A DNA stretch of 64,000 bases, from NCBI RefSeq assembly GCF_003991155.1, contig NZ_CP031293.1. One strand, given 5' to 3'. Positions 25,901 through 28,900 of this stretch are shown piece by piece. Within the stretch, counting starts at the first letter, position 1; each line of letters starts with the position of its first letter. The DNA comes from Escherichia coli (GTDB lineage Bacteria > Pseudomonadota > Gammaproteobacteria > Enterobacterales > Enterobacteriaceae). Made by a program: the position numbers.

Positions 25901-28900
25901 AATTCCCTGTCATTGCGCCCTATCGTCAGGCAGACGATAGGGCATCGGGTTATTCCACCGCCCACTGCGGATTTTTTGCCACTCTGCTGCAATAGTTCTG
26001 GTAAATCGCCATCGCTAACAGCGAGAAGAAGACAGGGCCGCCAATCATCCACAATGTGCTGTCCCAGTCTCCGGCTTCAACCACAGGTTGAAAGATGGTG
26101 AAGACGTTCGCAAATGTCACAACCAGTACGACAACCACCGTCGCAATCATTGCCGACATACGCGTTTTGAAAATCACAAACGGTCTGTCGAGATCCTGAC
26201 GTGCTTTAAAGAATGGGAAAGCCAGCGCGAGGAACAAGTAAGGAAGCGTCATAGACACGTTCGCCATCAGAGTCAGTTTGTTAAAGAACGCCGATGCGGT
26301 GCCACCGCCAAACGAAACCAGCAGGATGAAGACAGTAACCAGCCCGCACTGCATCCACATGGCGATAGACGGCATACCCATCGTATTCAGGCGCGTCATC
26401 GGTTCCGGCCACAATGCTTTCGGCGTTCCCTGGATGATGGCTTTCAGCGGTGAATAGCAAAGCGTAAAGAACGCACCGGTATAAGCGAGGAACATCGAAA
26501 GCCCGGTAATACGCGCAAACCATACGCCCAGCGACAATGACGCTTCTGGTGACAAATGCAGTGCGTTACCCAGCGTCACCCCGAGGCTCTTCATCAGCAC
26601 ATAGGTAATATTGCCGAGGTTAACGGAACCATTACTTAATACCTGCTGCCAGTTTGTGCTGACGCCCCATAAAAATATTGCCAGCGAATAACCGATTGAA
26701 ATAACAATAGCGGCAAAAACAATACCTTTGGCAAAGTTCTTTTCTGGATTTTCCGTTTTATCGACCAGACCACCAACCGCTTCAATTCCGCCATAGGCAA
26801 AAATAGCAAATACCACAAACGATAGCATTGCCAGACCGGACTGATAACCTGGATTCGGTGATGCAAGGAAATTAATATCCTGCGCGAAATGCCCACCATT
26901 TAATAACAAAATAGTAATGCTTACTAACAGCAATACTAAATTCAGACACATTACTGCAATACCGCCCACCGCAGTAATGCGGGCAATTTTATTAATCCCC
27001 TTTGAAGCAACGACGGTGACCAGAATCATCCATGCCACTGCCAGCAGACCAACCACCTGCGTAGGCTCCAGTCCGGCAATACGCCAGTGCTGGGTCATGT
27101 CGCTACCATAGAGGAATGTTGAGAACGGTACCCAAACTTTCGCGGAGGTACTCACCATCCAGATGATATAAGAGGAAAACCACATAAACGTACCAATGAA
27201 GGCAAAACGTGGTCCGACACTATTATTCATCCATGAATAGATACCGCCTTCTTCTTTGCGATAAGCAGCGCCCATTTCAGCCATCATTAAGGCGAATGGA
27301 ATAAAGAATAACAATGCAGAAAATATATAAAAGGGAATCGCACTATAACCCATTAAGTAATAAGCCGATGGGCTATTGGCAAATCCAAATACGGAAGTAA
27401 AGATCATCAATATGAGTCCTATCAGACTCATCTTTTTTATCGTGTGAGGCATGAAACCATCCTTCATTTCAGCGCGTGTATAAAACGCGCCCACTGAACT
27501 GCACTGCCCAACATTGAGCGGGCAGCGTAAAAACCAATACAAAATTGATACCTGGATGATATCAAATATCCAGTCTTAAATTGTGGCCTTTAGCGGAAAA
27601 ATGAAAACATATGCTACAGAATGGCGCTTATCACGCCATTCTTCGCGGTTAATTCAGTAATTTTTCAGAATTATGCCCGGTCAACGCTAAAGGCGATGAC
27701 TTCAGCCAGTGTCTCCGCGCCCAGCGCCAACATCACCAGACGATCAACACCTAATGCCACGCCGGAACAGTCAGGCATACCGACTTTCAAGGCTTCAATC
27801 AGATTCTGGTCAATGGGGTGCTGCGGCAAACCGCGCGCCGCGCGCTTACGGTTATCTTGTTCAAAGCGTTGTTGCTGCTCACGGGCATCCGTCAATTCAT
27901 GGAAACCATTCGCCAGCTCAATACCTTTATAATAAACCTCAAAGCGTTCAGCGACCCGATGATCTTCGGTACTGATTTGCGCCAGTGATGCCTGGCTGGC
28001 TGGAAAGTGGTACACAAAGGTCGGTTTTTCTTTACCAATATTTGGCTCTACGCCAAAGGTAAACAGCAATTGTAGCAACGTGTCGCGGTCTTCTTCAGTA
28101 TCGGCAACGTTGCTCAAATCCAGTTTCGCTGCCACTTCCCGCAGTTGCGTTTTGTCGGCAGAGAGTGGGTCAATTTCCAGATAACGCAAGAAAGCTTGTT
28201 GATAAGAAAGGCTTTCTGCTGCCGGGCAGTCCAGCACCTGTTGCAAGAGATCGTCCACCTCGTTCATCAACCGGTACATATCATAGTGCGGTCGATACCA
28301 CTCAAGCATAGTGAACTCAGGGTTGTGATAACGCCCCATCTCTTCATTACGGAAGCTGCGGCACAGCTGGAATACCGGCCCACAACCGGCAACCAGCAGG
28401 CGCTTCATATGGTATTCCGGGCTGGTCATTAACCAGAGATTCATCCCCTGCGAATGCCCGGGGCCAACGAAACGTGTCTCAAACGGGACCAAATGAATAT
28501 CGGTTACCGTCGCCTGGCTCATACAAGGCGTCTCCACCTCCAGCACTCCACGATCGGCAAAGAAACGACGGATCTCCGCCATAATCGCCGCGCGTTTTAA
28601 TAAGTTAGGAATGGATGCGCTCGGCTGCCAGGATGCCGTTTCGCTCATAGTTAAATCTCCAGTTTTTGACAAGGGCACGAAGTCTACTCGCAACGCGACG
28701 GCGAGACAAATTTTACGCAGGAATCAAACAACGGTGGGCAGTGACTAAAAAAAGCACGATCTGATGGTTTAGTAATTAAATTAATCATCTTCAGTGATAA
28801 TTTAGCCCTCTTGCGCACTAAAAAAATCGATCTCGTCAAATTTCAGACTTATCCATCAGACTATACTGTTGTACCTATAAAGGAGCAGTGGAATAGCGTT

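What the first reader, a model, noticed from the sequence alone, without database searches (positions are those of the whole stretch)
25917..25943. Perfect 11-bp inverted repeat immediately after the yjeM stop, lacking a U-tract
GCCCTATCGTC-AGGCAG-GACGATAGGGC sits a few bp beyond the yjeM stop codon, at the boundary with the rearranged accessory patch. With no U-run it is unlikely to be a classical intrinsic terminator; it may mark the edge of the rearrangement or act as a stabilising 3' stem-loop.
Basis: seen in the sequence. Interest (0 to 1): 0.15.

Follow-up and report, generated by a model that had tools for sequence, protein, structure and literature searches.

The report
Conserved stem-loop after the yjeM gene
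The palindrome is real, but it is an ordinary, conserved RNA hairpin belonging to the 3' end of the yjeM transporter gene in essentially all E. coli, most likely protecting that mRNA's end, and it does not mark the neighbouring rearrangement.

Summary
Only 0.02 such repeats are expected per shuffled window. yjeM lies on the minus strand, and the hairpin starts 6 nt after its TAA stop. No U-run follows it on either strand.

It is not tied to the accessory patch. K-12 has identical stems. Strain 2018-166, which carries intact yjeN, has the identical 27-mer. This allele (A) is in 2756 of 5426 complete E. coli genomes. The other 2670 carry allele B, with four stem pairs changed on both sides and pairing kept. 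Within each allele the stems hardly vary, while loop and flanks vary freely. U·G wobbles fit only the yjeM-sense RNA.

At least five downstream gene arrangements all keep the hairpin. The window/K-12 breakpoint is a yjeN deletion junction at about 25903-25908, 9-14 nt beyond the hairpin. In 47 of 52 enterobacterial species a non-homologous strong hairpin follows the yjeM stop.

Best reading (confidence about 0.5): a U-less stem-loop that blocks 3' exonucleases and stabilises yjeM mRNA while allowing read-through. No experimental 3'-end data were found. It is ordinary: a new member of a known kind, of low interest.

The parts
25917..25943 (-). Stem-loop in the yjeM-sense transcript. The 5' arm is 25943-25933, the loop is 25932-25928 (UGCCU), and the 3' arm is 25927-25917. 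One further U.G pair (25944 with 25916) can extend it.
   Evidence: for the structure. for conservation and covariation.
25950..27452 (-). yjeM CDS (glutamate/GABA-family transporter, 500 aa). Its TAA stop is at 25952-25950, 6 nt upstream of the hairpin.
   Evidence: RefSeq annotation of the 100% identical strain 2016C-3878; ORF list.
25903..25908 (-). Deletion junction that removed yjeN codons about 1-81. It shows AGG(A/G)AAT microhomology. This is the true breakpoint relative to K-12.
   Evidence: Alignments to K-12 yjeM-yjeN-yjeO.
25849..25899 (-). 16-codon in-frame remnant of the yjeN 3' end (GTG...TGA). Its stop overlaps the yjeO ATG (ATGA), as the yjeN stop does in K-12.
   Evidence: Read from the sequence and the alignment to K-12 yjeN. 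Inferred, not annotated.
25538..25852 (-). yjeO orthologue with TGG>TAG at codon 19 (25798-25796). RefSeq annotates only the 74-aa downstream part.
   Evidence: Translation and alignment to K-12 yjeO; annotation.
24511..25328 (-). Frameshifted IS630-family transposase pseudogene, part of the accessory patch.
   Evidence: RefSeq annotation; Pfam HTH_29, HTH_33 and DDE_3 matches.
23341..24368 (-). A 237-aa hypothetical protein (23655-24368, no Pfam match) and a second, divergent YjeO-family (DUF2645) gene (23341-23658), lying next to mscM (19988-23311, + strand).

Best explanation
The palindrome encodes a stable RNA stem-loop, without a U-tract, in the yjeM-sense transcript just after the stop codon. 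It most likely acts as a barrier to 3'-to-5' exonucleases (PNPase, RNase II). Transcripts that read on into the variable downstream DNA (yjeN/yjeO, their remnants, or the convergent mscM) would be cleaved or terminated further on, then trimmed back to the hairpin. This would give yjeM mRNA a defined, protected 3' end that does not depend on what lies downstream, while still allowing some read-through into yjeN-yjeO where these exist. Shown here: the structure, selection on its pairing, the strand it acts on, and its linkage to yjeM rather than to the downstream genes. Inferred: the exonuclease-barrier role and the source of the 3' ends.
For: (1) Position and stability: the hairpin starts 6 nt after the stop, has 11-13 pairs and folds at -20 to -24 kcal/mol.
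(2) No U-run follows it on either strand, and the terminator scan does not list it.
(3) It is nearly universal. Allele A is in 2756 and allele B in 2670 of 5426 complete E. coli genomes, one copy per genome. Both alleles also occur in other Escherichia species: A in E. whittamii and Escherichia sp. E1V33, B in E. albertii.
(4) Pairing appears to be selected. A and B differ by double, pair-preserving changes at 4 of the 11 stem pairs. A fifth pair shows U-A, U.G and C-G. Overall 98.8% of cells pair, against 22-54% when the partner column is slid. Within allele A, 0 of 22 stem columns vary against 9 of 21 non-stem columns (Fisher p = 5e-4). Within allele B, 2 of 22 vary (both pair-preserving) against 13 of 21 (p = 4e-4). 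All this sits in a 60-nt patch where K-12 and UTI89 are only 45% identical, while the rest of yjeM is mostly 93-100% identical.
(5) Strand: the U.G wobbles (stem pair 10 in most B genomes, the flanking pair in A) would be C.A mismatches in the antisense RNA and break DNA symmetry. This points to the yjeM-sense RNA.
(6) The hairpin is kept in five different downstream arrangements, including strains where yjeN and yjeO are both absent. Its function therefore travels with yjeM.
(7) Positional analogues: in 47 of 52 Enterobacteriaceae species a strong hairpin (-12 kcal/mol or better; median -22) starts within 30 nt of the yjeM stop. These hairpins are not homologous to one another: 17 are REP-like, some are terminators, some are CCCCTCCC/GGGAGGGG hairpins.
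(8) Literature: stable U-less stem-loops mark and protect steady-state 3' ends of E. coli transcripts against PNPase and RNase II (PMC6061677). RegulonDB lists yjeM and yjeNO as separate units, yet an RNA-seq contig spans yjeM-yjeN-yjeO, which suggests an incomplete stop (PMC4168707).
Against: No experimental 3' end at this site was found. yjeM and yjeN do not appear in the supplementary tables held for Adams 2021 or the TERMITe paper. No supplements are held for three other papers.

The 160 nt downstream are richer in G than in C in all arrangements with a downstream gene (C/G 0.5-0.9). The rut site that Dar & Sorek place just after such hairpins is therefore not evident, and 3' ends would have to come from endonuclease cleavage or distant termination.

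The covariation is dominated by a single A/B split, so it represents few independent events. The sequences compared were chosen by identity spread rather than at random. Perfect DNA palindromes can also be kept perfect by template-switch (quasi-palindrome) mutation without any selection on RNA.
Confidence: 0.5

Rival explanations
1. It is a weak or conditional transcription terminator or pause hairpin. It would partly stop RNA polymerase after yjeM and so set the ratio of yjeM to yjeN-yjeO expression.
For: The G+C-rich stem sits right after the stop codon. RegulonDB treats yjeM and yjeNO as separate units while read-through RNA is seen. In some relatives the same position holds genuine hairpin-plus-U-tract terminators, for example Citrobacter sp. 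R56 and Enterobacteriaceae UBA5654.
Against: No U-tract follows the hairpin in any Escherichia allele. By established knowledge, E. coli RNA polymerase needs one for efficient intrinsic termination. The consensus scan does not list the site. The hairpin is also kept where nothing lies downstream to attenuate.
Confidence: 0.15
2. It is a 5' or upstream element of yjeN-yjeO expression. The hairpin would sit 9-12 nt before the yjeN Shine-Dalgarno sequence and either shield the 5' end of a processed yjeNO mRNA or keep the ribosome-binding site open.
For: In K-12 and UTI89 the hairpin is followed by AGGAA or AAGGAAG and then the yjeN ATG. The Shine-Dalgarno sequence stays unpaired in the folds. The yjeN-deleted strains keep the Shine-Dalgarno sequence and a mini-ORF coupled to yjeO.
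Against: E. coli 536, Combat11I9 and STO_Bone2 carry no annotated yjeN or yjeO (a short yjeN start remnant remains in the 150-nt gap) and keep a perfect hairpin. The E. whittamii deletion removed the yjeN Shine-Dalgarno sequence and start but kept the hairpin. The distance from stop to hairpin and the flanks differ between alleles.
Confidence: 0.1
3. It is a DNA-level palindrome with no RNA role. It could be the operator of a dimeric DNA-binding protein, or a neutral quasi-palindrome kept perfect by replication template switching.
For: It is a perfect 11-bp symmetric repeat. The core ATCGTC-N5-GACGAT is shared by both alleles. Template switching can change both arms in one event and so mimic compensatory evolution (established knowledge, not tested here).
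Against: The outer five pairs differ between alleles at four positions, which a sequence-specific protein would not tolerate. Most B genomes have a T/G asymmetry that breaks DNA symmetry but is a legal U.G pair in sense RNA. All five loop positions vary. Non-homologous hairpins occupy the same position in other genera, which fits a generic RNA role.
Confidence: 0.15
4. This is the first reader's idea: the hairpin marks or causes the edge of the rearranged accessory patch, for example as a recombination or deletion end-point.
For: Two independent yjeN deletions end 6 nt (E. whittamii) and 9-14 nt (window type) beyond the hairpin. O157:H7 strain TR01 carries an A/B chimera joined inside the hairpin. 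The A/B divergent patch is centred on the hairpin.
Against: The identical hairpin occurs with intact yjeN-yjeO (K-12; 2018-166) and in 2756 genomes, only 42 of which match the window's 25700-26150 stretch at 99% or better. No junction coincides with the hairpin edge except in one genome. The IS630/hypothetical-protein insertion lies more than 500 bp away, beyond yjeO.
Confidence: 0.07

Closest known systems
U-less protective stem-loops at steady-state 3' ends of Rho-dependent E. coli transcripts (Dar & Sorek 2018, PMC6061677)
   Same: Both are stable stem-loops just downstream of a stop codon with no uridine-rich tail. The proposed role is the same: a block to PNPase and RNase II.
   Different: No C-rich, G-poor rut-like stretch follows here (C/G 0.5-0.9). 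In many strains a translated gene starts about 25 nt downstream. No mapped 3' end is available for yjeM.
REP/BIME intercistronic mRNA stabilisers, such as malE-malF (own knowledge: Newbury et al. 1987)
   Same: Both are intercistronic or 3' stem-loops that stabilise the upstream cistron. REP-like elements occupy exactly this position after yjeM in 17 Citrobacter, Salmonella, Kluyvera and related species.
   Different: This hairpin is single-copy in every genome and has no REP consensus.
Intrinsic (Rho-independent) terminator
   Same: Both are G+C-rich hairpins of 11-13 pairs with a short loop directly after a gene.
   Different: There is no U-tract on either strand. Read-through RNA has been reported.
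Recoding hairpins downstream of stop codons (SECIS, read-through stimulators)
   Same: In allele A the hairpin begins 6 nt after the stop codon, a spacing typical of recoding stimulators.
   Different: The spacing is 16 nt in allele B, and the stop codon differs (UAA against UGA). The spacing is therefore not conserved. This option was rejected.

Membership tests
Intrinsic (Rho-independent) terminator | G+C-rich stem-loop with a short loop | tested here: met
   11 perfect pairs, 7 of them G-C, with a 5-nt loop; -20.3 kcal/mol.
Intrinsic (Rho-independent) terminator | Run of U (about 5 or more of 8) starting 0-2 nt after the stem | tested here: not met
   The sense tail is GCAAUGACAGGG and the antisense tail is AUCGGGUUAUUC. 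The terminator scan does not report the site. The same holds in K-12 and in allele B.
Intrinsic (Rho-independent) terminator | Factor-independent RNA release at the site | not testable with these tools
   This needs in vitro transcription or Term-seq. No entry was found in the supplements held.
Protective 3' stem-loop of Rho-dependent transcripts (Dar & Sorek 2018) | Energetically stable stem-loop not followed by a U-rich sequence, at a gene's 3' end | tested here: met
   The class is defined in PMC6061677.
Protective 3' stem-loop of Rho-dependent transcripts (Dar & Sorek 2018) | rut-like C-rich, G-poor region immediately downstream | tested here: not met
   C/G is 0.52-0.96 in 78-nt windows over +1 to +118 in the window, K-12, UTI89 and 21AH006. 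It exceeds 1.5 only beyond +60 in the yjeNO-less strain 536.
Protective 3' stem-loop of Rho-dependent transcripts (Dar & Sorek 2018) | Steady-state RNA 3' end at the base of the stem, extended in exonuclease mutants or changed by bicyclomycin | not testable with these tools
   No data on yjeM were found in the held literature.
REP/BIME repeated extragenic palindrome | Many copies per genome sharing a consensus | tested here: not met
   One place per genome in 2756 genomes. Allele B has 1-2 places per genome with a median of 1. No REP motif is present in the Escherichia hairpin.
Any Rfam family | Covariance-model match | tested here: not met
   A permissive cmscan of 23000-28000 gave only four chance-level hits, none of them at the hairpin.
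Structured RNA under selection (generic) | Base pairing preserved through compensatory changes, with stems less variable than loop and flanks | tested here: met
   98.8% of cells are paired and 6 of 13 pairs show double changes. Stem against non-stem variability gives p = 5e-4 and 4e-4. Caveat: few independent events, and the sample was not random.

The most novel reading that the evidence does not exclude
The yjeM stop/hairpin patch would be an ancient two-allele polymorphism shared across species: A and B each sit near 50% in E. coli, and each also occurs in other Escherichia species. Structure is conserved while sequence is nearly saturated. The palindrome itself would act as a local hotspot or guard for deletions and recombination junctions, given two independent yjeN deletions ending 6-14 nt from it and an A/B chimera joined inside it in strain TR01. 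On this reading the hairpin shapes the variability of the yjeM-mscM interval rather than just sitting beside it.
Probability: 0.1. Interest if true: 0.4.

Novelty: new member of a known kind. Interest (0 to 1): 0.15.

Why it matters
Mainly as a clean negative. The hairpin is a conserved part of the yjeM 3' end, not a scar or boundary of the accessory patch, so it should not be used to delimit the rearrangement. It is also a tidy natural example of compensatory evolution in a U-less 3' stem-loop: two alleles at about 50/50 in E. coli differ at four stem pairs. That makes it a convenient test case for how such hairpins define mRNA ends and uncouple a core gene from variable downstream DNA. yjeM itself is poorly characterised and weakly expressed, so the practical impact is small.

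Tried and rejected
- **Rfam:** a permissive scan of 23000-28000 found nothing at the site.
- **Experimental 3' ends or operon data for yjeM/yjeN:** there were no occurrences in the supplements held for Adams 2021 or TERMITe 2025. No supplements are held for Dar & Sorek 2018, the 3'-UTR valves paper or Conway 2014.
- **rut-site composition downstream:** the sequence is G-rich, so a Rho site directly after the hairpin is not supported.
- **REP or mobile repeat:** rejected because the hairpin is single-copy.
- **Read-through or recoding stimulator:** rejected because the stop-to-stem spacing is 6 nt in allele A and 16 nt in allele B, and the stop codons differ.
- **Operator for a dimeric transcription factor:** disfavoured by the covariation of the outer stem and by the U.G asymmetry. 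No known operator consensus came to mind (own knowledge, not tested).
- **ampC-amplicon paper:** it reports frequent amplicon end-points inside yjeM but no fixed hotspot, and makes no link to this hairpin.
- **Promoter inspection:** I looked by eye for a promoter in the last 60 nt of yjeM that would place the hairpin in a yjeNO 5' UTR. Nothing was convincing, and the scan lists no minus-strand promoter there.

Full report
**Observation**

The window carries a perfect inverted repeat with arms at 25917-25927 and 25933-25943: 11 pairs, 5 nt apart. The coordinates are correct.

yjeM lies on the minus strand, with its CDS at 25950-27452. In the sense of the gene the RNA is UAA-CCCGAU-GCCCUAUCGUC-UGCCU-GACGAUAGGGC-GCAAUGACAGGG. 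The hairpin therefore starts 6 nt after the stop.

It folds at -20.3 kcal/mol alone and at -21.9 with a flanking U.G pair. The 101-nt context has a z-score of -3.25 against shuffles. No U-run follows it on either strand, and the terminator scan does not list it.

The window holds four distinct perfect repeats of at least 11 bp with loops of 3-8 nt. Dinucleotide shuffles give a mean of 0.02. The repeat is not a chance match.

**Is it tied to the accessory patch? No.**

A 451-bp query around the site matches 5425 of 5426 complete E. coli genomes, in three coverage classes.
- K-12 has identical stems and a single loop change (UACCU), followed by the yjeN ribosome-binding site and ATG.
- Strain 2018-166, with intact yjeN, has the identical 27-mer.

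A 60-nt query centred on the hairpin finds this allele (A) in 2756 genomes, once per genome. The UTI89 form (allele B, AACUCAUCGUC-UCUCC-GGCGAUGAGUU) is found in 2670 genomes. Together they account for essentially every genome.

Both alleles also occur outside E. coli: A in E. whittamii and Escherichia sp. E1V33, and B in E. albertii and Escherichia sp. MOD1-EC7003.

**What lies downstream varies; the hairpin does not.**

At least five arrangements follow the hairpin:

| Allele | Downstream arrangement | Example |
|---|---|---|
| A | yjeN-yjeO | K-12 |
| A | yjeN deleted, yjeO kept | 21AH006, AVS0223 |
| A | the window's form (below) | 2016C-3878, 100% identical |
| B | yjeN-yjeO | UTI89 |
| B | neither gene annotated; mscM only 150 nt away | 536, Combat11I9, STO_Bone2 |

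The window's form runs, in order: a yjeN deletion remnant, yjeO with a TGG>TAG stop at codon 19, a frameshifted IS630 transposase, a 237-aa hypothetical protein, and a second divergent DUF2645/YjeO-family gene.

The window/K-12 breakpoint is an in-frame deletion of yjeN codons about 1-81. Its junction is at about 25903-25908, with AGG(A/G)AAT microhomology, 9-14 nt beyond the hairpin. A second 12-nt deletion is also present.

E. whittamii has an independent yjeN deletion that ends 6 nt beyond the hairpin. So the hairpin belongs to the conserved yjeM side, and variable DNA begins just after it.

**Evidence that the pairing matters**

- **Local divergence.** K-12 and UTI89 are mostly 93-100% identical across yjeM. 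Identity falls to 45% in the 60-nt window holding the stop and the hairpin, then recovers to 88-95% in yjeN and mostly 92-100% in yjeO.
- **Compensatory changes.** Inside this near-saturated patch the two stems differ at 4 of 11 pairs, each by changes on both sides that keep the pair: G-C>A-U, C-G>A-U, C-G>U-A and U-A>C-G. A fifth pair appears as U-A, U.G or C-G.
- **Pairing across 13 distinct sequences.** 98.8% of cells pair, against 22-54% when the partner column is slid.
- **Stems against the rest.** Within allele A, 0 of 22 stem columns vary against 9 of 21 loop and flank columns (Fisher p = 5e-4). Within allele B, 2 of 22 vary, both pair-preserving, against 13 of 21 (p = 4e-4). All five loop positions vary.
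- **Strand.** The U.G wobbles would be C.A mismatches in the antisense RNA and break DNA symmetry. The constraint therefore fits the yjeM-sense RNA.

Three caveats apply. The A/B split is essentially one event. The sequences were picked by identity spread, not at random. Template-switch mutation can keep DNA palindromes perfect without any selection on RNA.

**Other genera**

In 47 of 52 Enterobacteriaceae species with a yjeM orthologue, a strong hairpin starts within 30 nt of the stop. The median distance is 8 nt and the median energy is -22 kcal/mol.

These hairpins are not homologous to one another. Seventeen are REP-like. A few have U-tracts. The Enterobacter group has CCCCTCCC/GGGAGGGG hairpins preceded by an A-run, which makes them terminators for the convergent mscM. 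A hairpin at this position is thus a recurrent, convergent feature of the yjeM 3' end.

**Mechanism**

The best reading is a U-less 3' stem-loop that stops 3'-to-5' exonucleases. It would give yjeM mRNA a defined, stable end whatever lies downstream, while letting some transcription pass.

This class is documented genome-wide in E. coli (PMC6061677). REP elements, which sit at this same position in relatives, are classic intercistronic stabilisers (own knowledge). RegulonDB lists yjeM and yjeNO as separate units, yet an assembled RNA-seq transcript spans yjeM-yjeN-yjeO (PMC4168707). That is consistent with an incomplete stop.

Two things count against the full Dar & Sorek picture. The first roughly 100 nt downstream are richer in G than in C (C/G 0.5-0.96), so a rut site right after the hairpin is not evident. 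And I found no mapped 3' end for yjeM in any supplement held. I put confidence at about 0.5.

The rivals, with rough confidence, are:
- a weak terminator or pause site (0.15);
- an upstream element for yjeN-yjeO expression (0.10). This is weakened because the hairpin persists where yjeN-yjeO is gone and where the yjeN ribosome-binding site is deleted;
- a DNA-level palindrome, either an operator or a neutral quasi-palindrome (0.15). This is weakened by the covariation and the wobble asymmetry;
- a marker of the rearrangement edge (0.07).

A recoding role is rejected. The stop-to-stem spacing is 6 nt in A and 16 nt in B, and the stop codons differ.

**Comparison with known kinds**

Nothing in Rfam matches. 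The element is single-copy, so it is not a REP. It fails the U-tract test for intrinsic terminators. It meets the structural test but fails the downstream-composition test for protective stem-loops of Rho-dependent transcripts. I file it as working like that class, with membership unproven.

**Verdict**

The "edge of the rearrangement" half is not.

It is an ordinary conserved 3' element and a new member of a known kind, with interest of about 0.15. The one mildly unusual aspect is the roughly 50/50 two-allele polymorphism, shared across species, with compensatory stem changes and deletion or recombination junctions clustered nearby. This includes an A/B chimera joined inside the hairpin in O157:H7 strain TR01.

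Noticed in passing
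L085 (E. coli O157:H7 TR01) 2990-3015, equivalent to window ~25917-25945: The hairpin is chimeric. The allele-A 5' arm and part of the loop (GCCCTATCGTCTGCC) are joined directly to allele-B ATCGTCTCTCCGGCGATGAGTTG. The other O157:H7 genomes sampled appear only among the allele-B hits. This is either a recombination junction inside the hairpin or an assembly artefact.
   Followed up: partly
window 25796-25798 within 25538-25852 (- strand): The yjeO orthologue next to yjeM has TGG>TAG at codon 19. RefSeq annotates only a 74-aa 'YjeO family protein' from an internal ATG, so it is probably a pseudogene. An intact but divergent DUF2645 paralogue lies at 23341-23658.
   Followed up: yes
window 25849-25899 (- strand): A 16-codon in-frame remnant of yjeN (GTG...TGA) keeps the ATGA stop/start overlap with yjeO. 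Translational coupling to yjeO could therefore survive the yjeN deletion. E. whittamii has an independent yjeN deletion with a different junction.
   Followed up: partly
window ~25900-25990; L001 against L003: There is a sharply bounded hyper-divergent patch covering the last 12 yjeM codons plus the intergenic region. K-12 and UTI89 are 45% identical there but mostly 93-100% identical across the rest of yjeM. The two haplotypes are each shared with other Escherichia species, so the dimorphism is old or has been exchanged.
   Followed up: partly
L001 2845-2875 and L085 2880-2905 (just after the yjeO stop, facing the mscM stop): A second U-less hairpin, GCCGGATTGGTTCATCCGGC (GCCGGATGGGTTCATCCGGC in TR01), lies between the converging yjeO and mscM ends.
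   Followed up: no
L054-L084 (Listeria, Enterococcus, Bacillus, Vagococcus, Gottfriedia): YjeM has homologues 58-68% identical in Firmicutes. That is unusually high for a comparison across phyla and hints at horizontal transfer of this transporter.
   Followed up: no
window 25864-25901: A second, weaker inverted repeat (13 nt, 77% complementary; AUUUCG...CGAAAU in RNA) lies inside the yjeN remnant and pairs in the predicted fold. It derives from yjeN coding sequence, so it is probably incidental.
   Followed up: partly
window 48433-48458, 54517-54542, 57789-57818: These are the three other perfect inverted repeats of at least 11 bp in the window. The first is AAACGGACCTCC-ACGG-... with A/T flanks, which looks like a bidirectional terminator. 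None was examined further.
   Followed up: no
yjeM gene (window 25950-27452): A published evolution study found that 38% of ampC amplicon boundaries fall within yjeM, but found no fixed hotspot (PMC12625342). No link to the hairpin was established.
   Followed up: partly
window 23655-24368 (- strand): The 237-aa hypothetical protein in the accessory patch has no Pfam match. Its function and origin are unknown.
   Followed up: partly
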